Shown piece after piece: positions 37,195-55,253 of a DNA stretch of 64,000 nt. The stretch covers positions 22,561 through 86,560 of the forward strand of contig CABUNR010000002.1 in NCBI GenBank assembly GCA_902492995.1, in the 5' to 3' direction. Position numbers and translations under genes: made by a program. The first letter of the stretch is position 1; each line of letters opens with the position of its first letter. The notes under the pieces were generated by a model. The model made no database searches. It was given only the letters and a program-made list of their open reading frames with translations, and was not told the origin of the DNA. Source of the DNA: an uncultured Bacillota bacterium (GTDB lineage: Bacteria; Bacillota_I; Bacilli_A; RF39; UBA660).

Positions 37195-38787
37195 GTGGTA
37201 CTTAGAAAACCATATAAATTTCTTATAAAGCATTTTAGAATGATACATTTAATTCTTGCAATATTAAGTGGTTATTTACTTACTAAAACAAATAGAACAC
37301 TAAGTTTTTTTAATGATTATTTAAATAATAATGAAACATTAATAGGAAATGGTACAGCTAGTGAATATTTTAGCGGTTTAATGACTTTATTTATAGTAAT
37401 AATTTTAATTGGTATAATTATAATTACGGTTATTATGAAAATGAAAGATAAACCTATAACTTTCTATATTATAACTTTAGTTGCATATATTTTTATTGGA
37501 GTAATATATGCATATGATAGTTCATTAATAAAACAACTTGAATTAAAAGTACTTGATATAAGAACAATTAAATTAGCTAGTGATTTAACACTGATTTGTT
37601 TTTTGGTTCAAACGTTTTCAACTATTATTTTATCTGTAAGAGCAGTAGGATTTGATTTAAAGAAATTTAATTTTGATAAAGATTTTGAATTAGAAATAGA
37701 TGAAAAAGATAATGAAGAATTTGAATTTGATGTTTCTATAGATAAAAATAAAATAAAAAGAAATACAAAAAAAAGTATAAGAAATTTAAAATATGCTTAT
37801 CATGAAAATAAATTTATTGTTAATATAGCTATAGTAGTTTTTATAGTTTTAATAGGTGGTATTATTTATTTGAATAAAGAAGTATATAATAAAATTTATA
37901 AAAAAGGTGAAATAGTTACTACAACACAATTTTCATATTTATTAAAAGATAGTTTTTTAGTAAATACTGATTATAGAAATAATAAGATAACAGATAATTA
38001 TATTGTTGTTGTAAGATTAAAAATCAAAAATAACTTAAAAGATACTATTAACTTAGAAACTGCAAGAGTTTTACTTCATATTGGTAAAGTTACATATAAT
38101 CCAACAACAAAATATAAAGATAATTTAATTGATTTAGGAACAGATATATCAAATAAAAAGTTAAAAAAAGATTTTGAAGAATATATAATAGCATTTGAAA
38201 TACCAAAAAAAGATATTAATAAAAAAATGACAATCAGTTATACAGATTTATCAAATAAAGTTTATACAACTAAACTAGATAATATTAAATTTGAAAATGG
38301 AACAAATGTGTCATCAAAACTAAATGAATATATAACTTTAAATAATGATATAATTAAAAATGTCAAATTTGAAATAACAGATTATAAAATAGATGACAAA
38401 GTAAAATCTACATACACATTTTGTGAAACAAAAGATAATTGTTATGAGTCATATGAGTATATTGTTCCAAGTTTAACAGATAATTATGAAAAAGCAATAT
38501 TAAGACTAGATGGTGATATAGATTTTAATAAACAAACTATTAAAAACTTTAATGATTTATCCGATTTTATAGAAAACTATGGTAGTATAACATATAAAAT
38601 AACAGATTCAAAAACAAAAAAACAAGAAGTTAAACAAATGAATACCAAGATAAAAGAAGTACTACCACAAAAAAGTGATGAATTAGGTACATATTATTTT
38701 GAAGTCTATAAAGAGATTAAAAATGCTGATGAAATAACTCTAGTTTTAAATATTAGAGGAAACATATATGAATACAAATTAAAATGA
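37195..38787 (+). CDS. Polytopic membrane protein with a large C-terminal extracytoplasmic domain, function unknown
   Basis: GTG start with RBS ggaggg; 4-5 TM helices in the first 220 aa, then a 300-aa K/N-rich soluble domain; monocistronic (own terminator). Confidence 0.4.
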   Translation: MVLRKPYKFLIKHFRMIHLILAILSGYLLTKTNRTLSFFNDYLNNNETLIGNGTASEYFSGLMTLFIVIILIGIIIITVIMKMKDKPITFYIITLVAYIFIGVIYAYDSSLIKQLELKVLDIRTIKLASDLTLICFLVQTFSTIILSVRAVGFDLKKFNFDKDFELEIDEKDNEEFEFDVSIDKNKIKRNTKKSIRNLKYAYHENKFIVNIAIVVFIVLIGGIIYLNKEVYNKIYKKGEIVTTTQFSYLLKDSFLVNTDYRNNKITDNYIVVVRLKIKNNLKDTINLETARVLLHIGKVTYNPTTKYKDNLIDLGTDISNKKLKKDFEEYIIAFEIPKKDINKKMTISYTDLSNKVYTTKLDNIKFENGTNVSSKLNEYITLNNDIIKNVKFEITDYKIDDKVKSTYTFCETKDNCYESYEYIVPSLTDNYEKAILRLDGDIDFNKQTIKNFNDLSDFIENYGSITYKITDSKTKKQEVKQMNTKIKEVLPQKSDELGTYYFEVYKEIKNADEITLVLNIRGNIYEYKLK

Positions 38788-38873: not shown

Positions 38874-41800
38874 ATGAAAAAAATGAAATCAATAATATTA
38901 ATATTACTAATTTCTTTTATTTTTATAGATAAAGAGAAAGCCTTTTATACTGCACAAGCAGGTACATCATGGAATAATGGTGGAGCAGGGTGCTCTGGAT
39001 ATAACTGTTATTCAAATATCAATAATGAAAAATTAATATTACAAGCAAGATTATATTACATAGATAATGCATCATTCACCCAAGTTGGAGAGACTTATTA
39101 TTTTGCTAATAGTGCTGCAAGTAATTATTTAAAAGAAAATAGAATAAATAATATATATATTTCTTCATTTGACAGTTCTTCAGATTATGAGAAAGCATAT
39201 AATAATTTAAAAAATTACTTTAATAATAGCGAAAATGCAAAAAATTATTTAAAAAAAGTAACTGGTACTCAAAATTATGAAGAAGTATTAACTAAAATTA
39301 GTGATAATAATAAAGGTTATAGAATTATGGTTGAACCAGCTCAGATCTATGGTAATCCAAGTTTTATGAATGGAAATATTGCACTTATGACACCAAAAGG
39401 ACTTGCAGCAGAACAAATAAAAACTGGAACAAATTGTAGTGAATGTAATAAAAAAGCTCAACAATTATATATGAGTACAAGTGAACTAGGAATAAGAGTA
39501 AATAATGACAAAAAACAAAATCCTAAGGATTACTGTGCATATATAGATACAGCTAAAATAGCAGATATAAAAATAGGATGTGGATATAACTTAATAAATA
39601 TAAGTAAATATATAAATGTCAAATGCTATAAAACGAGCGTTAATGGAACAGATGTAAAATGCACAAATTATGATGAAAATAATGGCGGAACATATGAAGA
39701 AGTGTATACTGAAAATTCCAGTTGTACAAATCAAGCAGATGCAGATAGATATAAATCATATGGAAAAAAATATAGTGAAAATGGAACATGCAAAATATAT
39801 TGTAAAGAAACAGGAAGTATAAGTTTACCAGGAAATGTATTAGCACCAGTAAAAAGAGGTTCTTATTTTGCGTGGCCAACAAAAAATTCAGATAAAGCAG
39901 GGCTTTATAAATTAACAATGACAACAAATTTAAAATGTAAAATAGTAGATACAGGAGGATCTACAACTCAAACAGCATCAGCATTTACAAGACAATGCCA
40001 AAGCAAATATACATCATATAATGATGATTGTAGGGCAACTGCAGTAACATCTAAAGTATGTCCAGAAGGAACTAAGCTTTGGAATGATGGAAAATGCTAT
40101 GTTATGAAAAATTCTAGTAATAGAACGCCAAGAACTAAAGAAGATCAATATGCTAATAAAATTTGTGATAGTACTAAAGGTTATGTGGAATATAGTGGTG
40201 GCTGTAGAAAAATAACATCATATAGCTATTCGTGCGGTAGGAATCAAACATTTCAAGGAAGGTATACTGGTACAATACCTGAGGGAGAACAAGTTTGCTG
40301 TCCAAGTGGATATGAACTAAATATTTATGAAACAACAAGGGCACACGCATGTAGAAAAAAGGCAAGTGTTGTTACAGGACATTCGTGCCCAGCAGGTGGA
40401 AATCTAAGCCCCGATAAGTCATATTGCGAAAAAAGTAAAACCTATTATTGCCCAAATGGTGGTACTTTAAATGGTACAACTTGTGTAAAAACTAATCAAA
40501 ATCAAAAAATTAAAGGTTGGACTTGTAAAATAGCACTTAGAAAATATAAATGTACTCAAGCAGCAAAATATGGATGTGAAAGTGGATGGGATTCAGTTGG
40601 TTCGTCATGCAGAAGAGAATCAACAACAGATACAAAACTTGATTGGGTTTATTCTCCACCAACTACAGCAAAAGCGACACCAAATTATGCGTATAGTGGT
40701 AAAACAGCATGTCCAACTGGATATTATGATAATGGCTCAAATTGTAAAAAAACAATTGATATAGCTCCTACATGTGATGGAAATGGAACACTTGATTGGG
40801 TAGGTGGAAAAAAAGTATGTGCAACATGCCCATCAGGTTATACATATATTGGTAATGGAATATGTAGAGAAAATAATTCTAAATCAGAAGTATGTCCATG
40901 GGATGATAAAAAAGAATATGTTTTAATAAATGGTGAATGCCATCATAGAACATCACAAACAAATTATACTTATTCTTGTAAAAATGATGAATATACAATA
41001 AGTTCTAATGAAAGAAGTTGTACTAAAAATTGTAATATAACTCCATTAAAAAATAGTGTTAATGAAATTTTAAAAAAAGAAGAAACCGGTATTACATTAA
41101 CTGGTGGAACAAATCAAAAAATAACAAATGAAACTTTAGATTCTGAGATTATTGATAAAAACTATAATGAAAATGATTTAACTTATAATAAAAAAACTTC
41201 ATTTTATATAAAAAGCAATAGAAACAGATATTATAATAAATTAACAGAACAAGTATTAAGTGAAAAAGTGAATTCAATTAATATTTTTGATAGACAACAA
41301 GGCGTTATATCAACATGGAAAAAAGATATAATAACAGAAAATAATTTAATAAAACATTATAATTTAGAATTAAAAATAACTAATTTTGGACTAAATAACC
41401 AATTTGGCTCTAAAATAACAAATTATGTATGTCATTATACATTAACAGATACACCAGATTGTATTTGTCCAGAGGATACATTAAATGGTGGCGCAGATGT
41501 TAAATATTTAGTAGAAAATGTATATAAAGATAAAATTACAAGAGAAAAAACATGCGCCTATTGGAAAGAAAAAATATGTGATAAACCAATAGGAAGAGTA
41601 TATTGTAAAGATACAACAAAAGATATAACTGATTGTGTGAAAGAACAAAACAAAACAGTTAATTTAGAAGATGCAATAAAAATATGTAAAATAGAGAATG
41701 GATGTGTAGATAATACATGCAAAGGTTCATGTACTGAACAACAGAAAAAATTAGATAATATTGCTTATAAAGTAACAAAATGTGATGGAAAATATTGTAA

Positions 41801-42416
41801 TTATTATGCGTACTGTGATGTAGAAAATAGAAAAACATCAGAAAGCTCAGAAGATTGTGTAAAAAAGGCTTTAGGAGTGGATGATATCATAGAAGCATTA
41901 AATAATGGAACATCAATAGACAAATTAGAAGCAGCAATAAGAAGCTGTAAAAATAAAATTTGTGCTTCAGATGAAAGAATTGTGTTTAGAATAATAGATT
42001 TAAAAAATCCATTTCCAGGAAAAGAACATAATAATACATTAAGTGGCTTTTCAAAAGAAGGAAAAAGTAGAACGCCAGGATATAATTGGAATTCAAAATT
42101 ACTAGTAAATAATAAAATAATAAATAATAGAGGAGTAAGCGATTATAAGCTTTATAGTAAAGAACCACTATATAAAATAACATTAACTCCAAGTAATATA
42201 AAGGCAATAAGAAATTATAATAAAAACAATAAATATGATAATCAAGGATTAAAATGTAGTAATAACAATACATCAAATTGTATAAGTTATTTCTTACATG
42301 ATAAAGTAGCAGGATTAGATACAGATATAAAAATAGAAGGTGTATCATCTTGCAAAAGTTTAAATGCATCATCAACAAAAGAGGATTTTGATGCATGTTA
42401 TAATTCAAATAATTAA
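38874..42416 (+). CDS. Giant cysteine-rich secreted protein 1 (1180 aa), paralog of 43879..46794
   Basis: Signal peptide; about 90 Cys in EGF-like spacing. Shares with the paralog a conserved N-terminal domain (LRLYY.D...GGTYY, KGYRI..EPA, GCGYN), an internal LTGGTN.KI...YVCHY..TD..C.CPE.T module and a C-terminal 150-aa domain (NDPFPGKEH...TPGYNWNSK...CY.SNN). Confidence 0.7.
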   Translation: MKKMKSIILILLISFIFIDKEKAFYTAQAGTSWNNGGAGCSGYNCYSNINNEKLILQARLYYIDNASFTQVGETYYFANSAASNYLKENRINNIYISSFDSSSDYEKAYNNLKNYFNNSENAKNYLKKVTGTQNYEEVLTKISDNNKGYRIMVEPAQIYGNPSFMNGNIALMTPKGLAAEQIKTGTNCSECNKKAQQLYMSTSELGIRVNNDKKQNPKDYCAYIDTAKIADIKIGCGYNLINISKYINVKCYKTSVNGTDVKCTNYDENNGGTYEEVYTENSSCTNQADADRYKSYGKKYSENGTCKIYCKETGSISLPGNVLAPVKRGSYFAWPTKNSDKAGLYKLTMTTNLKCKIVDTGGSTTQTASAFTRQCQSKYTSYNDDCRATAVTSKVCPEGTKLWNDGKCYVMKNSSNRTPRTKEDQYANKICDSTKGYVEYSGGCRKITSYSYSCGRNQTFQGRYTGTIPEGEQVCCPSGYELNIYETTRAHACRKKASVVTGHSCPAGGNLSPDKSYCEKSKTYYCPNGGTLNGTTCVKTNQNQKIKGWTCKIALRKYKCTQAAKYGCESGWDSVGSSCRRESTTDTKLDWVYSPPTTAKATPNYAYSGKTACPTGYYDNGSNCKKTIDIAPTCDGNGTLDWVGGKKVCATCPSGYTYIGNGICRENNSKSEVCPWDDKKEYVLINGECHHRTSQTNYTYSCKNDEYTISSNERSCTKNCNITPLKNSVNEILKKEETGITLTGGTNQKITNETLDSEIIDKNYNENDLTYNKKTSFYIKSNRNRYYNKLTEQVLSEKVNSINIFDRQQGVISTWKKDIITENNLIKHYNLELKITNFGLNNQFGSKITNYVCHYTLTDTPDCICPEDTLNGGADVKYLVENVYKDKITREKTCAYWKEKICDKPIGRVYCKDTTKDITDCVKEQNKTVNLEDAIKICKIENGCVDNTCKGSCTEQQKKLDNIAYKVTKCDGKYCNYYAYCDVENRKTSESSEDCVKKALGVDDIIEALNNGTSIDKLEAAIRSCKNKICASDERIVFRIIDLKNPFPGKEHNNTLSGFSKEGKSRTPGYNWNSKLLVNNKIINNRGVSDYKLYSKEPLYKITLTPSNIKAIRNYNKNNKYDNQGLKCSNNNTSNCISYFLHDKVAGLDTDIKIEGVSSCKSLNASSTKEDFDACYNSNN

Positions 42417-42501
42417 GTGTAAACATCTAGTTTATACTTTTTTATTGATTTACAAGCTAATTTATCCATGATATAATTTACTAAGAATAAAGGGTGATAT
42501 A

Positions 42502-43137
42502 ATGAAAAAGATAATCTTTTTAGTAACTCTGTTTTTAATTTCACTAGAAAGTGTACAAGCGTCATGTAGTGATGATGAAATAACTAGATTATCAAAACTT
42601 GCAAATAATGTAACAGCAAGTTATACATATAATGAAAAAACAAATAAATTTATGATCACATTTACAAATGTTACAGATGATTTATCAATAAATGATCTTA
42701 CTCATAATAAGTACTATAGTAATTACCCAGAAGTAACAATAAAAAATTTTAGTTCTGGTAAGCATAAATTTTATATTTATGCTAGTGATAAAAATTGCTA
42801 TGAAAGTGCATTATCATCAAAATATATAGAATTACCTTACTATAATAAATATTATGCATATAATGAATGCAAAAATTTTGAAGAGTATTCTTATTGTAAT
42901 AAATGGCTAAATTCTAATCTTTCATATGATATATGGAAACAAAAAGTAGATGAATATAATAAAGAAGTAAAAAAAGTAGAAGAAAAAGAAGTAAAAAATA
43001 CAAAAAGTATTTTATATATATTAAAAGACATAATTATTCAATTTTATGTAAGTTATTATTATATAATTTTGCCAACAATAATATCATCTTTATGCCTAAT
43101 AATATATCTTAAGAATAAAAGTGAAGAAATTATTTAA
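42502..43137 (+). CDS. Small secreted Cys-containing protein with C-terminal TM anchor (paralog of 43227..43865)
   Basis: Signal peptide ending VQAS-C, six conserved Cys, C-terminal hydrophobic helix plus KNKSEE tail; about 40 percent identical to the neighbouring ORF by eye. Confidence 0.6.
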   Translation: MKKIIFLVTLFLISLESVQASCSDDEITRLSKLANNVTASYTYNEKTNKFMITFTNVTDDLSINDLTHNKYYSNYPEVTIKNFSSGKHKFYIYASDKNCYESALSSKYIELPYYNKYYAYNECKNFEEYSYCNKWLNSNLSYDIWKQKVDEYNKEVKKVEEKEVKNTKSILYILKDIIIQFYVSYYYIILPTIISSLCLIIYLKNKSEEII

Positions 43138-43168
43138 AAGTATAAAATTATTTATACTTTTTTTATTT
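43137..43168 (+). terminator. Rho-independent terminator
   Basis: aaagtataaa-attatt-tatacttt followed by a T-run. Confidence 0.6.
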
Positions 43169-43226
43169 GCAATTAAAAAAAAGTATGCTATAATTGATAA
43201 TGAGAATAAAAGACTAAGGAGGATAT

Positions 43227-43865
43227 GTGATGAAAAAAAATATTTGTTTTTGTCTATTATTAATCCTTATTGTTTTGAGTCCCAAACATACAAAAGCTAG
43301 TTGCAACGATAGTGAAATAATAAGATTACAGAAATTAGCAAGTAATGTTAATATAACATATACAGCAAATGAAAATACACAAAAGTTTGATATTATAATT
43401 ACAAATTTAAAAAATGATTTGGTTTTAAAGGATGTTTATTCAAATAAAACTTATAATACTAATAGAGAAGTTACAATAAAAAATGCTTCTTCAGGTGCTC
43501 ATAGATTCTTGATATATGCAAAAGATAAAGAATGTACGAGTGATATATTAAAAGAAAAATATATAAAATTACCATTTTATAATTCTTATTATAAAAGAAG
43601 TGAATGTAAAGGCATAGAAAATTATGTATATTGTAGCAAATGGATGGATGTAAATTTAGATCAATCCGTTTATGAACAAAAAATAAATGAACATTTAAAC
43701 AATATGAAAAAAAATGAAGTTACGATAAAAGAAAATAATGGTAGTGGACTTTTAAAAAAAATAGTCGAGATATATACTAAATATTATTACATAATTATTC
43801 CAACGGCAATATTGATTATGTGCATAGCAATATATAAAATAAATAAAAAAGAAAAGTTAGTTTAG
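43227..43865 (+). CDS. Small secreted Cys-containing protein with C-terminal TM anchor (paralog of 42502..43137)
   Basis: Signal peptide ending TKAS-C, same Cys spacing and C-terminal anchor as the paralog. Confidence 0.6.
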   Translation: MMKKNICFCLLLILIVLSPKHTKASCNDSEIIRLQKLASNVNITYTANENTQKFDIIITNLKNDLVLKDVYSNKTYNTNREVTIKNASSGAHRFLIYAKDKECTSDILKEKYIKLPFYNSYYKRSECKGIENYVYCSKWMDVNLDQSVYEQKINEHLNNMKKNEVTIKENNGSGLLKKIVEIYTKYYYIIIPTAILIMCIAIYKINKKEKLV

Positions 43866-43878
43866 AGGTGACTATTAT

Positions 43879-46794
43879 ATGAAAAAGAAATATTTATCTG
43901 TCTTGATTATACTTCTTTTATGTTTTACAGTAAAAGTAAAAGGTTGGTATAACGGTAATGGTGGATCCTTCCCTTCACCAAGTGGTTCAGCAACGTATTG
44001 CGAGTCATTTTTAAAACCTTGCCAATATGAAAATTATTCTTATTTTTCTTTGCAACTTAGATTATATTATTTTGATGGAAATGGTAATGCAGAACAAATA
44101 GGTGGTACATATTATGCAACAAATGAAAATGGATATAGTAAACTTTCAAAATTAGTGGATGCGAATAATATCATTAAAGTCGAAGGAATGAAAAATATTG
44201 GGCCAAAAGATCCTGATAGATATGATAAAGCAAGCGAGGAACTAAAAAAATTTTTGGGAGACACTGATGAGAATAAATTCACAAATGTAATAAACAATAA
44301 TTTAAGAGATTTTTTTAAAAAAGCTGCTGGAAATAATTTCGAATCAACATTAAATAAAGAAACAGAAAATGCAGATCCAAGCAACAAAAAACCAGCAAAA
44401 AAAGGTTATAGAATAATAATTGAACCAGCAATTTTATATATTAAAGCTCCATGGACTGGTGGTAATGGTGCTATCATTTCAGTAAAAGGTGCAGCAGTTA
44501 AAAGGCTTAACAATAAATATGTTTGGGGAATAGATAGCTTACCTATGGTAAAAGGTGACTCAACACAAGCCGAAAAAAATCAAACACCACAATCACAATT
44601 TTTATATACAACGTTTGATGATGTTGGAATAGCAAGAGCAGGAACAAATAAAGAAGAAGCAAAAAGACATTGCTCTAACATAAATCTTAATGAATTAGCT
44701 GACACAAAAAAAGGTTGTGGATATAACATTATAGATGTCGGAAAATTTATAAGTCACCCAGAATGTTATGATAAAAAAGTTTCTGGAGGAATAAAATGTA
44801 CAAATACAGATGAAAATAATATAGGAGATTTTAGTGAAACATATACAAAAAGGGAATGCACAAAAGAAGAAAAAGATACTAATACTAACACACAATATGG
44901 AAAAGAAATAAAATCAAATGAAAATTGTACATTATATTGTAAGGAATATTCTAAAGCAAGTTTTCCAGGCAGCCTAGATAAAATATTTGATATAAATAAT
45001 GTTACAGAAGGAACATATTTTACATGGATTGGACAACCTGGTAAAAAAGGCACTTTAATGAATATGTACATGACAACAAAATTAAGCTGTACTATTGTAG
45101 AAAAAGAAAATAAAAAATGTACTAGTGATGATATAAATAATCTAAAAAAAAGTGCTATAGATACAGTAAAAAATAAAAAGCTATCAGCATCATTAACTGG
45201 TGGTACAAACAAGAAAATAAAAGGAAAAAAATTAGATATTGTATCAACAACTACAACGGAGATAAATGAAATAAAAAAAGTTGAATTAAATAATGATGGT
45301 GTTAGTAATTTATTTGAAGTATCTAAAAAGTCATACTTTAAAATACCAGATGATGTTAATAGATTATATAATAGGGAAAGTGGAAATGTATTTGATGGCA
45401 CGGTAGCCATAGATGAAAGCATTTTTGATAGAAAAATGGGAGTTATATCATTAAGCAAAAATGATGATACCTCTAAAACATATGATTTGGAAATTTCAAA
45501 TGTAGATATTGGAAATGAAGAATTTAATAAATTAATTAGTACTTATGTATGTCATTATAGAATAACAGATTCATCGTGTGTTTGCCCTGAGGGAACAATT
45601 AAAGCTGGTGAACCTTTATATGATAAGTTGACTAATGGTAAAACATGCCCTGAATTACAAGCAACAGAATGTAATATATGCGAATGTGAAGAAGATTCAG
45701 ATTATCCTGGACAAGAAATATTACTAGGAGACGATGCTACAGCAGCAGCGTGTGAAAAGAAGAAAAATGAAATATGTTATGATAAAAATACATGCGATTA
45801 TAATGGAAAGAAAATTGATACATCAACCTGTGTAAAAGAACAAATGACTAAAGGATTAACTAAATCAGAGGCAAACATATATTGTAAACAACAATTATGC
45901 CCTGAATGTACTGATAAAAATGGAGATAAAGTTGACTTATCAGAATGTATATCAAAAGGAAATACATATAAAATTTGTGAATATAAATATTGTCCAAATA
46001 GTTTATGCCCAAATGGAATTTGTAATAGTTGTAGTAAAAATTGTTCTTGGAAATTGACAAAAAAATCAAAGACATCAATTGAATATTCAAAATCATGTTC
46101 AGATGGGAAAGATTGTGGAACTATTAAATTGTCATGCCCAGGTGGAAATAATAAAATGAATAATGCAGAAGATTGTGTGAAAAAACAATTAAATAGTAAA
46201 ATAAAAGGAAATACAATATCCACTGCATTAACTAGTGGATTAATAACAAATAATGATGTTCAAACTGCATTTAATGCATGTAGAAGTGAGGTATGCCCTT
46301 ATTCTGGAAGCAAAATAATATATAGACAAATAGATTTAAATGATCCATTTCCAGGAAAAGAACATAAAGGTACTAATACAAATGATGCTTTAAAATTATC
46401 AAACAATAATCAAAGCATTAGAACAAGAACACCAGGGTATAATTGGAATTCAAAAACAGTTATAGAATCAAAAATATTAAATGCAAGAGGTGCTAAAGGA
46501 TATGAACTATACAATAAAGATCCTTTATACATCATCAAATTGACACCAAGTACGATGAAAAAAATTAGAGCATATAATAAAAATAATAGTTATAATGATT
46601 TTAATTTAAAATGTACAAATAAAAATCAAAGTGCAGCATGTATAAGTAGATTTTTACATGAAAATACAGTTAATAATTTAAATGTAAAAGACTTTATTGT
46701 TTCATCATATGATGGAAAAAATAGTGTTAATGTATGTAACAATATGAACTATAATGAAGGCTCATTTAAATCATGCTATGAAAGTAATAATTAA
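43879..46794 (+). CDS. Giant cysteine-rich secreted protein 2 (971 aa), paralog of 38874..42416
   Basis: Signal peptide; same three conserved domains as protein 1 but with the LTGGTNKKI...YVCHY module placed before the single Cys-rich block. Confidence 0.7.
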   Translation: MKKKYLSVLIILLLCFTVKVKGWYNGNGGSFPSPSGSATYCESFLKPCQYENYSYFSLQLRLYYFDGNGNAEQIGGTYYATNENGYSKLSKLVDANNIIKVEGMKNIGPKDPDRYDKASEELKKFLGDTDENKFTNVINNNLRDFFKKAAGNNFESTLNKETENADPSNKKPAKKGYRIIIEPAILYIKAPWTGGNGAIISVKGAAVKRLNNKYVWGIDSLPMVKGDSTQAEKNQTPQSQFLYTTFDDVGIARAGTNKEEAKRHCSNINLNELADTKKGCGYNIIDVGKFISHPECYDKKVSGGIKCTNTDENNIGDFSETYTKRECTKEEKDTNTNTQYGKEIKSNENCTLYCKEYSKASFPGSLDKIFDINNVTEGTYFTWIGQPGKKGTLMNMYMTTKLSCTIVEKENKKCTSDDINNLKKSAIDTVKNKKLSASLTGGTNKKIKGKKLDIVSTTTTEINEIKKVELNNDGVSNLFEVSKKSYFKIPDDVNRLYNRESGNVFDGTVAIDESIFDRKMGVISLSKNDDTSKTYDLEISNVDIGNEEFNKLISTYVCHYRITDSSCVCPEGTIKAGEPLYDKLTNGKTCPELQATECNICECEEDSDYPGQEILLGDDATAAACEKKKNEICYDKNTCDYNGKKIDTSTCVKEQMTKGLTKSEANIYCKQQLCPECTDKNGDKVDLSECISKGNTYKICEYKYCPNSLCPNGICNSCSKNCSWKLTKKSKTSIEYSKSCSDGKDCGTIKLSCPGGNNKMNNAEDCVKKQLNSKIKGNTISTALTSGLITNNDVQTAFNACRSEVCPYSGSKIIYRQIDLNDPFPGKEHKGTNTNDALKLSNNNQSIRTRTPGYNWNSKTVIESKILNARGAKGYELYNKDPLYIIKLTPSTMKKIRAYNKNNSYNDFNLKCTNKNQSAACISRFLHENTVNNLNVKDFIVSSYDGKNSVNVCNNMNYNEGSFKSCYESNN

Positions 46795-46807: not shown

Positions 46808-47209
46808 GTGAAAGAATCGTTTTGGGGAGCAATGATAATATCATTTGGAGTTATAGCAATACTTTTTATATACTTCTTTCAAAATATTACAAATACTGAT
46901 CAACAAAATTATAACTTGCTTAAAGAAACAACAGAAGCAGCAATGTATGATTCAATTGATCAAGTTGAATATCAAAAGAATGGAAATATAAAAATTAATG
47001 CAGAAAAATTTATAGAAAATTTTATAAGAAGATATGCAGAAAATGCAAGCTTATCTAATACATATGTTATTGAAATATATCATATAAGTGAGTACCCTCC
47101 AAAGGTTAGCTTATTAGTTAAATCATCAGAACAAACAACAGCAACAGGAGAAGTAATGGATTTTCAAATAACAAATAGAATAGATGCAATATTAGAAACA
47201 CCATATTAA
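46808..47209 (+). CDS. TadE/pseudopilin-like membrane protein
   Basis: GTG start with RBS aggagg; N-terminal hydrophobic helix then a 100-aa soluble domain; first gene of the Tad-like operon. Confidence 0.35.
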   Translation: MKESFWGAMIISFGVIAILFIYFFQNITNTDQQNYNLLKETTEAAMYDSIDQVEYQKNGNIKINAEKFIENFIRRYAENASLSNTYVIEIYHISEYPPKVSLLVKSSEQTTATGEVMDFQITNRIDAILETPY

Positions 47210-47265
47210 TTTTGAAATTCAAAATTATATATAGATGCGAAATTAAGAAAGAAAGGGAGAAAGAT

Positions 47266-48108
47266 ATGAATAATTTTATGATTTCGTTACAAAAGTTTTT
47301 TAAAAACAAAAACACAGTTACTATAATAGGAGTAGTAGCAATAATATTAATCTTGTTCTTTGGATATCGTTATCAAATAAAGAAACAAGTAAGCCCTGTA
47401 ACTGGTATACCTGTTGCAGCACAAACAATTCAACCAAGAACTAAAATAACAGCAGATATGTTAGAGTATATCGATGTAGCACCTATTGTTTTACAAAAAG
47501 GTGAAGTAATAACAAATAAAAACCTTATAATTGGAAAATATAGTAATTATAATACTATAATTCCAAAGGGAAGTATGTTTTATAACGCTACAGTTATAAA
47601 TGAAGAAGAATTACCAGATTCAGCATTTATTGAAGTTGCTGATGGTGAAGTACCATATAACTTTCCAGTTACAATGGATTCAACATATGGAAATTCAATT
47701 TATCCAGGAAATTATATAGATATTTATATGAAAGCCGAAGGTAAAGATGGAAAATTAATGGTAGGAAAATTACTTGAGAATGTAAAAGTACTAGCAGTTA
47801 AAGATTCCGCAGGAAGACATGTTTTTGAAAATAGTGAAGAATCAAGAACACCAGCATACTTAATTTTTGGAGTAAAACCAGAAATAAATATACTACTTAG
47901 AAAAGCAAGTTATATGGGTAACTACTCAGTTGTTTTATTCCCAGTACCACATGGAGCAACAGTTGATGAAGATGGAACAACAACAGTTACATCAGAAACA
48001 TTAAAGAATTTCATAAATGTTAACACAGTAGCTAATGATGAAATTGAAGATAAAAAAGATACAACAACAAATACAACAACAACTACAAACACAAATAAAC
48101 AAGGATAA
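47266..48108 (+). CDS. CpaB/RcpC-like Flp pilus assembly protein (SAF domain)
   Basis: Start refined to ATG 47266 (RBS aagggag). N-terminal TM, then a SAF-like segment (TKITADMLEYIDVAPIVLQKGEV) and an RcpC-like segment (YPGNYIDIYM...LLENVKVLAVKD); Thr-rich C-terminal tail. Confidence 0.55.
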   Translation: MNNFMISLQKFFKNKNTVTIIGVVAIILILFFGYRYQIKKQVSPVTGIPVAAQTIQPRTKITADMLEYIDVAPIVLQKGEVITNKNLIIGKYSNYNTIIPKGSMFYNATVINEEELPDSAFIEVADGEVPYNFPVTMDSTYGNSIYPGNYIDIYMKAEGKDGKLMVGKLLENVKVLAVKDSAGRHVFENSEESRTPAYLIFGVKPEINILLRKASYMGNYSVVLFPVPHGATVDEDGTTTVTSETLKNFINVNTVANDEIEDKKDTTTNTTTTTNTNKQG

Positions 48109-48114
48109 TAATTA

Positions 48115-49539
48115 ATGAATGATTCAATGTTTTCCCAAATTGATTTTGGGGAACTAAAAAAGTATTTGGATGATGATGATATAACCGATATTTCATATAG
48201 TAATAATGGACAACTATTTGTAAAAACTTTATCAAAAGGTATTTACAGAGTTGAAAATGAAACTGTTAACAATGCATTTATGGAAAAATTAGCATTTCAA
48301 TGTGCTAATGTTATGGGTAAAACATTTAATATGGCTCATCCATTTCTAGATGCTGAAGGAGCAGAGTTACGTTTGAACTTTGTTCACGATTCGATAGCTA
48401 AAAATGGTATAGCTGTATTAATTCGTAAAACTCCAGCTAAGATAAGACTGGAAAAAGACAAATTATTAAAAGAGGATTATATCGAATTAGATATACATGA
48501 TTTTTTAATGAAATGTGTTTGGGGGCATTGTAATATAATTGTGTGTGGAGAAACTGGTTCAGGTAAAACCGAATTTGTTAAATATTTAGCAGCACATACA
48601 AAAGAAGATGAAAAATTAATTACAATAGAGGATACACTTGAATTACATTTGGATCGTATATTCCCACATAGGGATATAGTAGCAATGAAAACAAATAATA
48701 TTGCTTCATATAGCGATGTATTAGTAACTTGTATGAGACAGAATCCTAAATGGATTTTGCTTTCAGAGGTTCGTAGTGCAGAAGCAGTTCTTGCAATAAG
48801 AAACTCCATCTCATCAGGACACTATATTTTATCAACAATACATGCTGATAAAGCATCAAGTATACCTAACCGTATGTATAGTTTGCTTGAAACAAATCAA
48901 GATATTGATCAATTTTTAAAATCTGTTTATAGATATATTCAACTTGGAATATATATTAGAGGGTATCAAGATAAAAGAACAAAAAGATTTCATCGTGAAA
49001 TAGGAGAAGTTACAGAATTTTATGTAACCGAAGATAATAAGGCAGAATATAATACGATTTATAGAAAAACAACGACAGGAAAAATAGTAAGAAAAAATCC
49101 ATCTAAATATCTGATAGATTACTTAGATGCACAAGGAGTTACAATTTCAAAAGATGAAATAAAAGAAGGAGAAACAGACGGACCTAGGAAAAATATAGAA
49201 GATCAACCTTTAGATTCAAATACTTCACAAAATATTCAAAAAGGAAATATTCAAAATAATGTACAAGGTAATATTCCTAATAACATGATTAATAATCAAA
49301 CAAATATTAGACCTAATACAATAATTAATAATCAACAAAATAGACCAAATGTAGGAAGTAATCAAATGCCTGGTATGCCAAATAATATAAATAGTAATCA
49401 GCCAATGTATAATCAAGCAAATTATCAAAATAGACAAGTAATTAATAATTCACAAAATCAAGGTTATAATCAAATAAATTATAATACGAATAGACAAGTT
49501 GTTAATCCATATGGGGTTAACATGAATAATTCAGAATAA
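48115..49539 (+). CDS. CpaF/TadA-type (VirB11 superfamily) secretion ATPase with a 115-aa C-terminal N/Q-rich tail
   Basis: Walker A GETGSGKT, Asp box ITIEDTLEL, Walker B/His box KWILLSEVRSAEA...STIHA. The tail from residue 360 is more than half N plus Q. Confidence 0.85.
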   Translation: MNDSMFSQIDFGELKKYLDDDDITDISYSNNGQLFVKTLSKGIYRVENETVNNAFMEKLAFQCANVMGKTFNMAHPFLDAEGAELRLNFVHDSIAKNGIAVLIRKTPAKIRLEKDKLLKEDYIELDIHDFLMKCVWGHCNIIVCGETGSGKTEFVKYLAAHTKEDEKLITIEDTLELHLDRIFPHRDIVAMKTNNIASYSDVLVTCMRQNPKWILLSEVRSAEAVLAIRNSISSGHYILSTIHADKASSIPNRMYSLLETNQDIDQFLKSVYRYIQLGIYIRGYQDKRTKRFHREIGEVTEFYVTEDNKAEYNTIYRKTTTGKIVRKNPSKYLIDYLDAQGVTISKDEIKEGETDGPRKNIEDQPLDSNTSQNIQKGNIQNNVQGNIPNNMINNQTNIRPNTIINNQQNRPNVGSNQMPGMPNNINSNQPMYNQANYQNRQVINNSQNQGYNQINYNTNRQVVNPYGVNMNNSE

Positions 49540-49552
49540 AGGAGGTAAATTA

Positions 49553-50458
49553 ATGGAATATGTAGTTTTTCTAATTATTGCATTAGTAGCAGTATTTGTT
49601 ATTTCTTATCGAAATAGTAGCGGGGAAAAAGTATATAAATATATTTCAAATAATGCTGGAAATATTTATGAAAAATACTCTCCTTATTCATTTAAAGAAG
49701 TAAGAAGAAAAGTAAAAGAATTAGGACAAGATTATACAAAAAAACAATATTTAATACAAATTACAATATTTGCAGCAGGAGCATCAGTCATTACATATCT
49801 TTACTTTTATAGTTTAATTATTTCGATATTTTATGCAATAGTTGCTATAATGGTAATACCATATCTTCAATATCTTAGATGTAAAAGAATATATAGTGAA
49901 TTTATTTTTGAACAAATACAAGTTTATACAACAAACGTAATAATGGAATTCGCAACTACTCAAGCTTTTGTTAAAGCACTTGAAGGAGTATATGAATCAG
50001 GAGTTTTAGAAGATCCTGTAAGAAGCGATGTAAAATTAATGATTGATATGGCTTATGATAATGGTACAATTGATGAATCTATAAAATTTTTTAATAAAAA
50101 ATATGATTATTACATAGTAAAAAATACTCATCAATTGTTCTTACAAATAACAAATGAAGGTTCTAAAAACTCAAGCGATGCACTTGAAAATATGAGCCAA
50201 GATATAGATATGCTTGTTGAATCAGTGTATAGAGATAGAATAGATAGAGCCAATTTCCATAAAAAGTTTGTAAGATTTGGTATAGTTTTATATCTTATGG
50301 TTATGCTTGTTCAATTCTTATTAAGCCCAGAAAGCTATATTGAATTATTAAATAGTAATTTTACTGTTAAATTATTATTGCATTTAATAATAATAATTAA
50401 TAGTTATTTCTTACTAAATGGAGAAAAATTTTATAATGAGAATGTAGGTGCTGAATAA
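49553..50458 (+). CDS. TadB-like (GspF-domain) pilus assembly membrane protein
   Basis: 301 aa with N-terminal TM, a central pair of TMs and a C-terminal TM; position directly after the ATPase. Confidence 0.45.
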   Translation: MEYVVFLIIALVAVFVISYRNSSGEKVYKYISNNAGNIYEKYSPYSFKEVRRKVKELGQDYTKKQYLIQITIFAAGASVITYLYFYSLIISIFYAIVAIMVIPYLQYLRCKRIYSEFIFEQIQVYTTNVIMEFATTQAFVKALEGVYESGVLEDPVRSDVKLMIDMAYDNGTIDESIKFFNKKYDYYIVKNTHQLFLQITNEGSKNSSDALENMSQDIDMLVESVYRDRIDRANFHKKFVRFGIVLYLMVMLVQFLLSPESYIELLNSNFTVKLLLHLIIIINSYFLLNGEKFYNENVGAE

Positions 50459-51246: not shown

Positions 51247-51332
51247 CGACTACTTGACAAAAGATATTGATAAAAATACTAAAAAGAGTTATAATAAAAA
51301 TGTATATATATTAAAATAAGGGTGGTGAGATA

Positions 51333-51557: not shown

Positions 51558-51572
51558 TATGGAGGTGTCTAA

Positions 51573-51983: not shown

Positions 51984-51994
51984 GGAGGTAATAT

Positions 51995-52423: not shown

Positions 52424-52440
52424 AAGATTGGGGTGATAGT

Positions 52441-53882: not shown

Positions 53883-53906
53883 TAAAAATACATTTAATAA
53901 AACAAT

Positions 53907-53936: not shown

Positions 53937-53964
53937 TGTTATAATGTATTTGGTATAGTTTAAA

Positions 53965-55236: not shown

Positions 55237-55253
55237 GGATGGAGGTGATATAA

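What the first reader, a model, noticed from the sequence alone, without database searches (positions are those of the whole stretch)
38874..46794. Two giant cysteine-rich secreted paralogs (1180 and 971 aa) with shuffled domain order
Both proteins have signal peptides and about 90 and 70 Cys respectively in EGF-like spacing, which is highly unusual for a low-GC anaerobe-type genome. They share three conserved modules. The first is an N-terminal domain (LRLYY.D, GGTYYATN, KGYRI.EPA.Y, GCGYN.I). The second is an internal LTGGTN.KI ... YVCHY.TD..C.CPE.T module. The third is a C-terminal 150-aa domain (DPFPGKEH, TPGYNWNSK, ending CY.SNN). In protein 1 the internal module sits between two Cys-rich blocks. 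In protein 2 it precedes a single Cys-rich block, implying duplication followed by domain rearrangement. No catalytic motif is recognisable. Candidate roles are pilus-associated adhesins, surface exclusion proteins or cargo of the adjacent secretion genes.
Basis: seen in the sequence. Interest (0 to 1): 0.8.

Follow-up and report, generated by a model that had tools for sequence, protein, structure and literature searches.

The report
Disulfide-rich swappable-head adhesins of mating machine
The two big cysteine-rich genes are real, belong to a large unannotated protein family of uncultured small-genome gut Bacilli, and are most likely the variable-headed surface adhesins of a chromosomal pilus-plus-conjugation-type machine, held on by a conserved tail also found in adhesin-slot proteins of Bacillus conjugative plasmids.

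Summary
Both ORFs exist (1180 and 971 aa) and are true paralogs. They have 62 and 43 Cys, not ~90/~70. They are colinear: P1 simply carries an extra ~350-aa Cys-hairpin array, so nothing is shuffled.

They have no Pfam, NCBIfam, PHROG, PADLOC or PDB sequence match and no significant fold match. A profile search still finds 1073 relatives. All genomic hits are uncultured gut Bacilli/"Tenericutes" MAGs.

In 18 loci examined the gene order is fixed: g530 – (small anchored protein S + big protein P)×1–3 – DUF5411 pilin-like protein – RcpC – CpaF/TadA – TadB/C – pilins – VirB6/VirB4/CHAP/VirD4. This is a distant relative of pLS20/pAW63-type Gram-positive conjugation systems. In those systems the same slot holds an adhesin; TIEpLS20 is experimentally required for mating.

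P's C-terminal ~160 aa is homologous to the tails of the Bacillales slot proteins (hhalign 96.6%, E 5e-10). Within one species the P2 head is replaced (37% aa identity) while tail and flanks stay 97–100% identical. 26 of 27 mature proteins have an even Cys count.

Best reading: Sec-exported, disulfide-stapled, head-swappable adhesins docked to the filament/T4SS through the conserved tail. Function is inferred, not shown.

The parts
38874..42416 (+). P1: 1180-aa Sec-signal, Cys-rich (62 Cys) surface protein, long (P1-type) paralog
   Evidence: ORF. Cys count. Only an N-terminal hydrophobic segment. Orthologs of 1205-1346 aa in other species.
38943..39950 (+). P1 head (aa ~24-359), homologous to P2 aa 3-408
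   Evidence: BLASTP 2e-45. 8-10% variable sites among >=93%-identical strain variants.
39951..40997 (+). P1-specific insertion (aa 360-708): array of disulfide-closed C-[PDE]-x-G-x(4-11)-C hairpins, 27 Cys
   Evidence: Absent from P2 in the colinear alignment. 6 motifs against 1.2 in shuffles. Orthologous inserts of 346-383 aa with 27-31 Cys and 6-12 motifs in the P1-type proteins where the insert could be delimited.
40998..41978 (+). P1 middle beta module (LTGGTN...YVCHY..C.CPE.T) and Cys-rich stalk (aa 709-1035)
   Evidence: Aligned to P2 aa 407-808.
41979..42413 (+). P1 conserved C-terminal tail module (aa 1036-1180)
   Evidence: Only 0.7% variable sites among strain variants. The module lies at the extreme C-terminus in 177/177 family members.
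42502..43137 (+). S1: 211-aa small partner protein with signal peptide, ~155-aa ectodomain with 4 invariant Cys, and C-terminal TM anchor. It goes with P1-type proteins.
   Evidence: Topology. Invariant C22, C99, C123, C132. An S gene accompanies the P gene(s) in all 18 loci.
43227..43865 (+). S2: 212-aa paralog of S1 that goes with P2. Its 3' half co-diverges with the P2 head.
   Evidence: In conspecific L030, S2 is 63% identical while S1 is 97%.
43879..46794 (+). P2: 971-aa Sec-signal, Cys-rich (43 Cys, 42 mature) surface protein, short (P2-type) paralog, always immediately upstream of DUF5411
43500..46040 (+). Within-species hypervariable segment: S2 codons ~95 to end plus P2 codons 1 to ~720
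   Evidence: 45-71% nucleotide identity to conspecific contig L030, while flanks 36321-43500 and 46043-47542 are mostly 97-100% identical (one 94% window at 43209-43508; patches of 88-95% inside P1).
46303..46791 (+). P2 conserved C-terminal tail module (aa 809-971): IIYRQIDLNDPFPGK ... PGYNWNS ... PLYIIKLTPSTMKKIRAYNK ... C..C.S.FLH
   Evidence: 99.4% identical in L030 while the head is 37.5%. It is the most conserved region across the family. It is homologous to the tails of pHT73, Priestia and Exiguobacterium slot proteins: hhalign 96.6%, E 5e-10, reversed control 0.3%.
37195..38787 (+). g530: polytopic membrane protein with a ~300-aa extracytoplasmic C-terminal part, the first gene of the conserved cassette
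   Evidence: TM scan. Always precedes the S/P genes; the g530-S-P-DUF5411 unit is duplicated as a block in L009. No Pfam or PDB match.
46808..47209 (+). DUF5411 pilin-like protein (short leader, Gly, hydrophobic helix); homolog of pLS20 p36
   Evidence: Pfam PF17424, 1e-48. The HMM built from MAG loci hits pLS20 p36 at 2.7e-8, pHT73 DUF5411 at 4.4e-11 and Priestia DUF5411 at 6.4e-8.
47212..53421 (+). Tad-like filament module: RcpC/CpaB, CpaF/TadA/VirB11-type ATPase, two TadB/C-size membrane proteins, a 74-aa pilin (51333-51557), two pilin-like proteins (g136, g142), and a 326-aa soluble protein
   Evidence: Pfam and NCBIfam. Pilin-like leaders. ATPase HMM against the pLS20-type plasmid 3e-53; g262 against the gene-39 equivalent 1.4e-7.
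53520..62746 (+). Gram-positive-type T4SS module: two T4SS_pilin-domain proteins, extended VirB6/TrbL, VirB3-size 2-TM protein, a 183-aa protein, VirB4, CHAP hydrolase and a 222-aa anchored protein. A VirD4 gene follows just beyond (seen in L028).
   Evidence: Pfam. L028 gene table with VirD4, then housekeeping genes.

Best explanation
P1 and P2 are Sec-exported, fully disulfide-bonded surface proteins that act as the target-binding (adhesin or partner-recognition) subunits of a chromosomal Tad-like filament plus Gram-positive T4SS machine.

Each protein is built as a variable N-terminal head, then a beta module, then a Cys-rich stalk, then a conserved ~160-aa C-terminal tail. P1 adds a Cys-hairpin array.

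The tail is the docking element. It ties the protein to a conserved machine part, most likely the DUF5411 pilin-like protein encoded next to it, possibly with help from the membrane-anchored partner S and from g530. The head points outward and is exchanged by recombination between strains under diversifying selection.

Shown here: the architecture, the Cys pattern, the synteny, the tail homology and the head replacement. Inferred: export, disulfide formation, docking to DUF5411/S, and adhesion as the activity.
For: 1. Fixed cassette. g530-(S-P)n-DUF5411-RcpC-TadA... occurs in all 18 loci examined, and the g530-S-P-DUF5411 unit is duplicated as a block in L009. S2, P2, DUF5411, RcpC and TadA are separated by 13 nt or less (coordinates). 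There is no plus-strand terminator-like site across 34-53.9 kb.

2. The system is a distant relative of pLS20/pAW63-type conjugation systems. HMMs give ATPase 3e-53, VirB4 2e-24, g262 1.4e-7 and DUF5411~p36 2.7e-8. Gene sizes and topologies match the pLS20 gene table (PMC8557374).

3. In seven annotated plasmids the slot upstream of p36/DUF5411 and CpaF holds a 767-993-aa secreted protein. It is adhesin-type (thioester, Ig-like or isopeptide-forming) in five, and an unannotated protein carrying the conserved tail in pHT73 and Exiguobacterium. The pLS20 occupant TIEpLS20 has a Sec signal, an N-terminal binding head, a stalk, an unexplained C-terminal attachment region and no LPXTG. It is needed in donors for mating, about 1000-fold in liquid (PMC8092201).

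4. P's tail is homologous to the tails of the pHT73, Priestia and Exiguobacterium slot proteins: hhalign 96.6%, E 5e-10, against 0.3% for the reversed control. HMM E-values are 2.9e-7 and 1.6e-3. A PSSM built from the P family alone ranks the four adhesin tails as the top 4 of 50,475 windows.

5. Conservation gradient. Head 24-47% against tail 45-99% identity. The tail sits at the extreme C-terminus in 177/177 members.

6. Within-species head replacement. In L030 the flanks are mostly 97-100% identical in DNA, the P2 head is 37.5% identical in protein and the tail 99.4%, and S2 co-diverges (63%). Polymorphism concentrates in the head. dN/dS is 0.38 for P1 and 0.26 for S1 against 0.05 for g530 and 0 for DUF5411.

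7. Extracellular disulfide design. 26 of 27 mature chains have an even Cys count (p = 2e-7), and 39 of 43 P2 Cys positions are conserved.
Against: - There are no expression, localisation or binding data.
- The tail is poorly modelled by AlphaFold2 (pLDDT 28-50 in the full model, 60.7 alone), so docking is not visualised.
- The adhesin role rests on position and analogy.
- The tail resemblance to TED adhesins, including TIEpLS20, is a short motif that ranks top but is not significant in absolute score.
- The cluster has VirD4 but no relaxase or integrase nearby, so it may not be a conjugation system at all.
- The S-P co-evolution test (partial Mantel r 0.47, 0/2000) is confounded by shared fast rates.
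- No Dsb-type oxidoreductase was seen in the window.
Confidence: 0.55

Rival explanations
1. The proteins are integral structural parts of the machine rather than adhesins. For example, they could form a wall-spanning stalk or conduit that substitutes for the secretin/outer complex missing in monoderms, or they could be surface/entry-exclusion proteins that prevent redundant contacts between cells carrying the same system.
For: Strict synteny with the machine, and block duplication together with DUF5411. pLS20 systems place an exclusion gene (ses) near the adhesin at the operon start (PMC8557374). Exclusion proteins are typically allele-specific, which would fit the head polymorphism.
Against: A core structural part would be expected to evolve like the machinery (63% mean pairwise identity for DUF5411, 62% for RcpC). 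P shows 26% mean identity and 37% heads within a species. Ses of pLS20 is a 362-aa N-terminally anchored protein, unlike P. The homologous-tail proteins in plasmids carry Ig-like adhesin-type domains.
Confidence: 0.17
2. The proteins are a variable surface coat (S-layer-like or antigenic-variation proteins). They would be anchored by the conserved tail and functionally independent of the neighbouring pilus/T4SS genes, with the synteny being historical.
For: A conserved anchoring module plus a strain-variable exposed part replaced by recombination is the pattern known for S-layer cassettes (general knowledge). Polymorphism and elevated dN/dS support this. Plasmid homologs sit next to SLH- or SH3-domain wall-binding proteins.
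Against: The position immediately upstream of DUF5411/CpaF is kept from uncultured MAGs to Bacillus, Priestia and Exiguobacterium plasmids, across very large sequence divergence. There is tight, terminator-free spacing with the Tad genes. No SLH, CWB2 or other wall-binding domain is present.
Confidence: 0.13
3. The proteins are secreted antibacterial or host-directed toxins/effectors, and the small co-varying membrane protein S is the cognate immunity protein.
For: S-P pairs co-occur and co-diverge. There is strong within-species diversification. A secretion apparatus lies adjacent.
Against: The polarity is the reverse of polymorphic toxins: here the N-terminus varies and the C-terminus is conserved. 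There is no toxin, peptidase or nuclease domain and no PADLOC or PHROG hit. There is no invariant His or catalytic-triad candidate in the head. The Sec signal makes T4SS export unnecessary. The homologous-tail proteins on plasmids are adhesin-like. No orphan immunity arrays were seen in 18 loci.
Confidence: 0.07

Closest known systems
TIEpLS20 (gene 34 of Bacillus subtilis plasmid pLS20), the thioester-domain mating adhesin (PMC8092201)
   Same: Same slot: upstream of p36/DUF5411 and the VirB11/CpaF ATPase at the head of the T4SS genes. Same design logic: Sec signal, N-terminal binding head, stalk, C-terminal attachment region of unknown mechanism, no LPXTG. Its extreme C-terminus carries the core motif EIMLTPINADDPFPNG..GW, resembling P's IIYRQIDLNDPFPGK..NW.
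   Different: No thioester, CnaB or isopeptide domains in P (Pfam negative). P has an invariant [YF]-C-x-E but no conserved Gln partner. P is stabilised by 42-76 Cys, where TIE-type proteins have 0-2. The tail similarity to TIEpLS20 is a short motif that is not significant alone. P is chromosomal, duplicated and head-polymorphic.
Unnamed 849-993-aa proteins upstream of DUF5411 on Bacillales plasmids: pHT73 WP_000837540 (849 aa), Priestia koreensis 'Ig-like domain-containing protein' (993 aa), Exiguobacterium 932-aa protein
   Same: Homologous C-terminal tail: hhalign 96.6%, E 5e-10. Sec-type N-terminus. Similar length. Immediately upstream of DUF5411-RcpC/SAF-(TadZ)-CpaF-TadB/C. This tail type occurs on 72 plasmids, 70 of them predicted conjugative or mobilizable.
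   Different: Heads and stalks are unrelated (full-profile E 0.015-0.13). They have only 6-10 Cys. Their tails lack the four Cys of P's tail. They are plasmid-borne, and their function is also untested.
PilY1/PilC tip-associated adhesins of type IVa pili (from general knowledge, not tested against sequences here)
   Same: About 1000-aa non-pilin proteins with a Sec signal, a variable N-terminal part and a conserved C-terminal domain that docks on minor pilins encoded alongside.
Polymorphic recognition adhesins coupled to transfer machines: R64 PilV shufflon adhesin of the IncI thin pilus, and Myxococcus TraA (variable domain + Cys-rich repeats + C-terminal sorting tag) (general knowledge)
   Same: A type IV filament or transfer apparatus whose partner specificity is set by a variable adhesin. 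TraA also combines a variable head, a Cys-rich stalk and a conserved C-terminal tag with a partner protein.
   Different: PilV is a true pilin that varies at its C-terminus by site-specific inversion. TraA is from a diderm and uses MYXO-CTERM. No homology was detected. Here variation is by allelic replacement.
EGF-like / furin-like Cys-rich repeats
   Same: The P1 insert has C-x-x-G-[YWT]-x(4-9)-C hairpins reminiscent of the second half of the EGF signature.
   Different: No EGF or related Pfam family is matched at E<=0.1. The rest of the Cys pattern is not EGF-like.

Membership tests
DUF5411-associated 'slot' proteins with the conserved C-terminal tail (unnamed family; pHT73 / Priestia / Exiguobacterium type) | C-terminal tail with colinear motifs [ILV]x[YK]RxΦ[DN]x[NK]xPFPxG ... 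GxNW ... ΦTPExxxxIxxYNK | tested here: met
   hhalign 96.6%, E 5e-10, 70 columns; reversed control 0.3%. HMM E-values 2.9e-7 and 1.6e-3.
DUF5411-associated 'slot' proteins with the conserved C-terminal tail (unnamed family; pHT73 / Priestia / Exiguobacterium type) | Gene immediately upstream of a DUF5411 gene followed by RcpC/SAF and a CpaF-type ATPase | tested here: met
   P2 ends 13 nt before DUF5411. Same order in 18 MAG loci and in L036, L039 and L040.
DUF5411-associated 'slot' proteins with the conserved C-terminal tail (unnamed family; pHT73 / Priestia / Exiguobacterium type) | Sec-type signal, about 850-1000 aa, no LPXTG and no C-terminal TM segment | tested here: met
   Hydrophobicity scan. 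N-termini of the plasmid proteins.
TIE (thioester-isopeptide-ester) adhesins such as TIEpLS20 | Thioester domain (Pfam TED/TED_2) with a [YFL]CΦπ Cys and a conserved Gln partner | tested here: not met
   No Pfam TED hit on P1 or P2, whereas the plasmid protein scores TED_2 at 1.2e-10. [YF]CxE is invariant (Y353, C354, E356), but there is no invariant or near-invariant Gln in the family.
TIE (thioester-isopeptide-ester) adhesins such as TIEpLS20 | CnaA/CnaB isopeptide stalk domains | tested here: not met
TIE (thioester-isopeptide-ester) adhesins such as TIEpLS20 | Required in donor cells for efficient mating | not testable with these tools
   Genetic assay needed (PMC8092201 describes it for pLS20).
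pLS20/pAW63-type Gram-positive conjugative T4SS (system level) | VirB4, VirD4, extended VirB6, cell-wall hydrolase, VirB11/CpaF ATPase and p36/DUF5411 in one co-directional cluster | tested here: met
   Pfam. VirD4 in L028. HMM links to L034 and pLS20.
pLS20/pAW63-type Gram-positive conjugative T4SS (system level) | Relaxase/oriT and a plasmid or ICE context (replication genes or integrase) | tested here: not met
   No relaxase or integrase in the window or in the 10 kb downstream in L028. The flanks are housekeeping genes (DacF/SpmAB upstream; rhodanese, RmuC and Lon downstream). A relaxase elsewhere in the genome was not searchable.
Type IV pilins / pseudopilins | Class III signal: short leader, Gly, then a hydrophobic N-terminal helix | tested here: not met
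   P1 and P2 have classic Sec n-h-c signals (MKKMKSIILILLISFIFIDKEKA / MKKKYLSVLIILLLCFTVKVKG). The neighbours pil74, g136, g142 and DUF5411 have the pilin-type leader.
PilY1/PilC pilus-tip adhesins | C-terminal PilC/PilY1 beta-propeller domain | tested here: not met
   No Pfam hit. No propeller in the model or fold searches.
Sortase-anchored (LPXTG) surface adhesins | C-terminal LPXTG, TM segment and basic tail | tested here: not met
   Both proteins end ...CYNSNN / ...CYESNN with no C-terminal hydrophobic segment.
EGF-like domain proteins | Six-Cys EGF fold recognised by EGF profile models | tested here: not met
   No EGF-type Pfam family at E<=0.1. Only a partial hairpin motif in the P1 insert.
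Polymorphic toxin systems | Conserved N-terminal trafficking part, variable C-terminal toxin, downstream immunity gene | tested here: not met
   The polarity is reversed (variable N, conserved C). No toxin domain.

The most novel reading that the evidence does not exclude
The conserved C-terminal tail is a general loading signal. It would plug interchangeable adhesin heads (thioester, Ig-like, isopeptide, or here disulfide-rich) onto a DUF5411-containing Tad-like filament that is part of Gram-positive conjugation machines, answering the open question of how LPXTG-less mating adhesins such as TIEpLS20 are held on the cell. In a whole lineage of uncultured small-genome gut Bacilli this machine would have been domesticated into a chromosomal, relaxase-less cell-contact organelle, whose polymorphic, disulfide-stapled heads (with their cognate S partners) decide which partner or host surface the cell attaches to.
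Probability: 0.2. Interest if true: 0.85.

Novelty: new variant of a known kind. Interest (0 to 1): 0.62.

Why it matters
1. It defines a large, completely unannotated protein family: 1073 cluster representatives, with no Pfam, PDB or fold match. The family breaks the usual cysteine-exclusion habit of Firmicutes exported proteins (PMC2823432). It replaces the isopeptide/thioester cross-links of classical Gram-positive adhesins with 21-38 probable disulfides, in gut anaerobes where no oxidoreductase is evident.

2. It links these proteins, through a homologous C-terminal tail and the DUF5411 neighbour, to the adhesin slot of pLS20/pAW63-type conjugation systems. This yields a concrete, testable hypothesis for how sortase-independent mating adhesins are attached, which the pLS20 authors raised as an open question.

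3. Within-species head replacement next to a 100%-conserved machine marks the heads as specificity determinants. That is useful for strain typing and for predicting who attaches to, or exchanges DNA with, whom in the gut.

4. A Tad-like + T4SS supercluster is conserved at the same locus across the uncultured small-genome Bacilli MAGs examined, and in this species it sits between housekeeping genes with no relaxase nearby. That hints at a lifestyle-defining contact apparatus in organisms nobody has cultured.

Tried and rejected
- Pfam, NCBIfam, PHROGs and PADLOC on P1, P2, S1, S2 and g530: nothing credible. The only S1 hit, PilM PF07419 (E 0.025, below cut-off), was rejected as signal-peptide driven.
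- Pfam on eight distant family members: nothing.
- PDB sequence-profile searches with the P, S and g530 alignments: nothing below E 0.5.
- AFDB Foldseek was unavailable.
- AlphaFold2 of the tail alone: pLDDT 60.7, not usable.
- Megablast and tblastn of the region or of P2 against plasmids and phages: no match.
- The search for homologous proteins with the short tail alignment: unproductive because of the word index.
- First genome scan with single-protein patterns: nothing.
- Thioester hypothesis for the invariant [YF]CxE motif: rejected, no conserved Gln and no TED profile match.
- Catalytic Cys-His triad in the head: rejected, no invariant His there.
- Prophage or ICE insertion at the tRNA cluster: rejected. 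The 367-aa minus-strand ORF is not an integrase (weak DUF6273 only) and the intervening genes are housekeeping.
- A 16-residue HMM scan of plasmid ORFs failed technically and was replaced by an explicit PSSM.
- Promoter-like sites are no more frequent than in shuffles (155 against 170.6), so they were not used.
- Literature searches for RF39 / type IV secretion / Cys-rich proteins found nothing relevant.
Full report
**1. Observation**

The window is very AT-rich (about 20-30% GC). It carries two long plus-strand ORFs exactly as reported: 38874..42416 (P1, 1180 aa) and 43879..46794 (P2, 971 aa).

Each has a single N-terminal hydrophobic segment of Sec type and no other TM segment. Cys counts are 62 (5.3%) and 43 (4.4%), not about 90 and 70. 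Most other ORFs in the window have 0.3-2%.

BLASTP shows two strong, colinear HSPs: P1 2-359 with P2 3-408 (2e-45), and P1 709-1180 with P2 407-971 (1e-56). The proteins are therefore paralogs with the same module order. P1 has an extra ~350-aa block (aa 360-708) between the head and the middle module. 'Shuffling' is not supported.

That block is an array of disulfide-type hairpins, C-[PDE]-x-G-x(4-11)-C. P1 has six copies against 1.2 expected in shuffles. This is the only place where 'EGF-like' is loosely apt, and no EGF family is matched.

**2. A large, unannotated family**

- Pfam, NCBIfam, PHROGs and PADLOC give nothing for P1 or P2.
- The word-indexed search of 5.8 billion proteins finds 16 relatives of P2 and 22 of P1. 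The only source name given is 'hypothetical protein'.
- A full HMM search of 1.84 billion cluster representatives finds 1073 hits (208 at E<=1e-30), typically 900-1300 aa.
- Distant members read in full keep the same motif order and also lack Pfam domains.
- In the species-representative genomes, 23 loci were found. All are uncultured MAGs, and nearly all are titled Bacilli, Firmicutes, Tenericutes or Mycoplasmatota, from rabbit, ruminant and human gut. One is a closed 1.34-Mb chromosome.
- Median Cys content of the 135 collected family members of at least 800 aa is 4.3%.
- 39 of 43 P2 Cys columns are conserved in at least 80% of members.
- 26 of 27 mature chains have an even Cys number (binomial p = 2e-7). 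This is the signature of complete disulfide pairing.

That is unusual. Exported proteins of Firmicutes generally exclude cysteine (PMC2823432).

**3. Structure**

The AlphaFold2 model of P2 (16-sequence alignment) has pLDDT 73.6. It shows a mixed alpha/beta head, two beta-rich modules, a helix-hairpin Cys-rich stalk and a poorly modelled tail.

**4. Context**

The window is chromosomal. It holds a tRNA cluster, LigA, pyruvate formate-lyase, an NAD salvage cluster and DacF/SpmAB.

From 37195 onwards the co-directional genes are:
- g530, a polytopic membrane protein
- P1
- S1 and S2, 211/212-aa paralogs with a signal peptide, a four-Cys ectodomain and a C-terminal TM anchor
- P2
- DUF5411, which has a pilin-like N-terminus
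- RcpC/CpaB
- a CpaF/TadA/VirB11-type ATPase
- two TadB/C-size membrane proteins
- a 74-aa pilin plus two pilin-like proteins
- a 326-aa soluble protein
- two T4SS_pilin-domain proteins
- extended VirB6
- a VirB3-size protein
- VirB4
- a CHAP hydrolase

In a conspecific contig a VirD4 gene follows, and then housekeeping genes (rhodanese, RmuC, Lon). No relaxase or integrase is present. S2-P2-DUF5411-RcpC-TadA are 13 nt or less apart (coordinates), and no plus-strand terminator-like site occurs across 34-53.9 kb.

**5. Synteny and rates**

In 18 loci from different species the order g530-(S-P)n-DUF5411-RcpC-TadA is kept, with n = 1-3. L009 duplicates the whole g530-S-P-DUF5411 unit.

S1-type genes go with P1-type and S2-type with P2-type, even where the order differs: S-P-S-P in L001, L032 and L033, against P-S-S-P here and in L007.

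The machinery is far more conserved than P and S. In L001, DUF5411 is 91%, RcpC 85% and TadA 77% identical, against P 32-42% and S 45-50%. Mean pairwise identities over 14 loci are P 0.26, S 0.31, g530 0.40, DUF5411 0.63 and RcpC 0.62. The partial Mantel correlation of S with P given RcpC is 0.47 (0/2000 permutations), but this test is confounded by shared fast rates.

**6. Within-species head replacement**

Contig L030 is conspecific: g530 is 99.4% identical, and DUF5411 and RcpC are 100%.

DNA identity to the window is mostly 97-100% from 36321 to about 43500 (with patches of 88-95% inside P1 and one 94% window at 43209-43508) and 97-100% from 46043 onward. It falls to 45-71% between about 43500 and 46040.

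In protein terms:

| Part | Identity to the window in L030 |
|---|---|
| P2 head | 37.5% |
| P2 middle/stalk | 67% |
| P2 tail | 99.4% |
| S2 | 63% |
| S1 | 97% |
| P1 | 95% |

Among alleles at least 93% identical, variable sites are 20-27% in P2 aa 1-290 against 3-5% elsewhere, and only 0.7% in the P1 tail. dN/dS is 0.38 for P1 and 0.26 for S1, against 0.05 for g530 and 0 for DUF5411.

Across the family the head is 24-47% identical and the tail 45-99%. The tail lies at the extreme C-terminus in 177 of 177 members.

**7. What the system is**

The ATPase's nearest annotated relatives (about 31-33% identity) are CpaF/VirB11 ATPases of Bacillales and Clostridia conjugative plasmids.

The Paraclostridium plasmid locus L034, and pLS20 itself (L038), have the same order: large secreted protein, small proteins, p36 (126-129 aa, N-terminal TM), VirB11/'tadA', two TadB/C-size proteins, 47-aa pilin-like ORFs, VirD4, extended VirB6, DUF5592, VirB4, VirB8-like and hydrolase. 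The pLS20 family gene table matches the window almost gene for gene in size and topology (PMC8557374).

HMMs built only from the MAG loci detect the plasmid ATPase (3e-53), VirB4 (2e-24), the gene-39 equivalent (1.4e-7) and p36 (2.7e-8 for pLS20; 1e-6 to 5e-4 for the others).

pHT73 (a pAW63/pXO2-type region; that classification is from my own knowledge), Priestia and Exiguobacterium plasmids are closer still in order: wall-binding protein, 849-993-aa protein, DUF5411, RcpC/SAF, TadZ-like ATPase, CpaF, TadB/C. The DUF5411 HMM scores 4.4e-11 against the pHT73 DUF5411.

The cluster is therefore a distant, chromosomal relative of pLS20/pAW63-type Gram-positive conjugation machinery, which includes a Tad-like filament module.

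**8. The slot and the tail**

In the seven annotated plasmids examined, the slot occupied by P holds a 767-993-aa secreted protein:
- a thioester-domain protein in pLS20, B. halotolerans and P. bifermentans (TED_2 confirmed at 1.2e-10 for the P. bifermentans protein)
- an isopeptide-forming fimbrial protein in Brochothrix
- an Ig-like-domain protein in Priestia
- unannotated proteins with the conserved tail in pHT73 and Exiguobacterium

TIEpLS20 is experimentally required in donors for mating (about 1000-fold in liquid, 15-fold on solid medium). It has no sorting signal and is sortase-independent. Its mode of attachment is stated to be unknown (PMC8092201).

P's tail profile matches the C-termini of the Priestia and pHT73 proteins in two colinear segments: DF[VI][YK]RSV[DN]P.[NK]PFP.G.GWNW, and [TI]TPE...[KQ]I[RK][QE]YNK.H. 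E-values are 2.9e-7 and 1.6e-3.

Profile-profile comparison gives 96.6% probability, E 5e-10, over 70 columns. The reversed control gives 0.3%. This tail type occurs on 72 plasmids, 70 of them predicted conjugative or mobilizable.

The TED adhesins, including TIEpLS20, end with EIMLTPINADDPFPNG.P.GW...WLKK. A PSSM made from the P family alone ranks the four adhesin tails as the top 4 of 50,475 windows in five plasmid loci. Only the Priestia score (12.6 bits) exceeds all shuffles (max 8.5). The TED scores (about -1) are suggestive only.

**9. Interpretation**

Shown:
- a modular, disulfide-type, Sec-signal protein family
- strict linkage to a DUF5411/Tad-like/T4SS cluster
- tail homology to plasmid slot proteins
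- recombinational head replacement within a species, with co-divergence of the S partner

Inferred: P proteins are the outward-facing recognition/adhesion subunits of this machine, docked through the tail (to DUF5411 and/or S and g530). Head diversity is driven by host immunity, phages or partner specificity.

The rivals are less well supported: structural or exclusion component, machine-independent variable coat, and toxin with S as immunity. Each is listed in the Rival explanations section with its tests.

The absence of a relaxase or integrase nearby, and the conserved locus across the MAG species examined, raise the possibility that the apparatus is domesticated rather than conjugative. 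This could not be tested here.

**10. Novelty and limits**

The kind (an adhesin at the head of a Gram-positive T4SS operon) is known. This family, its disulfide chemistry, its within-species head swapping, its paired S partner, and the shared DUF5411-linked tail do not appear to have been described. The only paper mentioning DUF5411 merely predicts a CpaF/PilC/DUF5411 operon in gut Clostridia (PMC9523054).

Limits:
- no expression or localisation data
- the signal peptide was judged by hydrophobicity only
- taxonomy comes from record titles only
- structure models are of moderate quality

Noticed in passing
window 51333-51557 (also 51573-51983, 51995-52423, 46808-47209): An unlisted 74-aa ORF encodes a pilin-like protein (MKEAAG|EANMTVITIVLIAVVLAV...) with 4 Cys. 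g136, g142 and DUF5411 share the same short-leader, Gly, hydrophobic-helix N-terminus. No prepilin peptidase was found in the window.
   Followed up: partly
window 42502-62746: All predicted extracytoplasmic parts of the machine are Cys-enriched (S1 2.4%, S2 3.3%, pil74 5.4%, g142 2.8%, pil120 3.3%, pil423 2.4%), while most other ORFs of the window sit at about 0.3-2%. No credible Dsb-type oxidoreductase is nearby. ORF 19598-20287 has only a sub-threshold Thioredoxin_5 hit and a single Cys.
   Followed up: partly
window 53520-62746 and L028:12503-21731: The T4SS block ends with a VirD4 coupling protein and is followed directly by housekeeping genes (rhodanese, DedA/VTT, RmuC, Lon). No relaxase, integrase or replication gene lies on either side. 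It may be a domesticated, non-mobile T4SS, conserved at the same locus in many MAG species.
   Followed up: partly
L034:17196-17599, L038:13191-13334, L037:4461-5189 and 10895-11203: pLS20-family plasmids carry 45-50-aa Flp-like ORFs (e.g. MLDQNTDRASWGMLALVLAGISALL...), sometimes in tandem copies. Brochothrix has an annotated TrbC/VirB2 gene. The pLS20 family paper states that Gram-positive elements form no conjugative pili and lack VirB2, so the Tad-like module (genes 36-41) may build an unrecognised filament.
   Followed up: no
L009:3797-13175: One rabbit-gut MAG has a tandem duplication of the whole four-gene unit g530-S-P-DUF5411 ahead of a single RcpC-TadA set.
   Followed up: partly
window 48115-49539 (aa ~380-474) and 55254-57662 (aa ~480-802): The CpaF/TadA-type ATPase carries a ~95-aa Asn/Gln-rich low-complexity C-terminal extension (…NIQNNVQGNIPNNMINNQTN…). 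The VirB6-like protein has a ~300-aa extension beyond its TM region.
   Followed up: no
window 40809-41408: Inside P1 (mostly the middle beta module) there is a patch of reduced identity (88-90% DNA) to the conspecific contig L030, within an otherwise 95-99% identical gene. This may be a smaller recombination tract.
   Followed up: no
window 24893-25249 and 25304-26227: Two adjacent ORFs begin with near-identical ~40-aa N-termini (M.L.MTK.Q.IKLIK.YYK...MNVDVKF.TFT). The second continues into an isochorismatase (PncA-like) domain, at the head of an NAD-salvage cluster (NAPRTase, NUDIX, NAD synthase, PRPP synthetase, NrtR).
   Followed up: no
window 14712-16319: A 535-aa ORF has a long stretch matching the Extensin-like repeat model below its threshold (65.6 bits against a cut-off of 105), so it probably contains a proline-rich repeat region.
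   Followed up: no
window 7946-8369 and 8441-9544 (-): A cluster of five tRNA genes (Val, Thr, Tyr, Gln, Lys) is followed by a minus-strand 367-aa ORF. This is not an integrase (weak DUF6273 only), so there is no sign of an island inserted at the tRNAs.
   Followed up: yes
L018 (CAYTKH010000085.1, 5.4-kb contig): A contig binned as 'uncultured Muribaculaceae' carries the P-type C-terminal module. It is most likely a mis-binned Bacilli contig.
   Followed up: no
L036:1-477, L039:3478-4686, L040:2127-3332: In the Bacillales plasmids the gene preceding the big tail-bearing protein encodes an SLH- or SH3-domain wall-binding protein of about 400 aa. This is the position held by g530/S in the MAGs and may be an alternative anchoring partner.
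   Followed up: no
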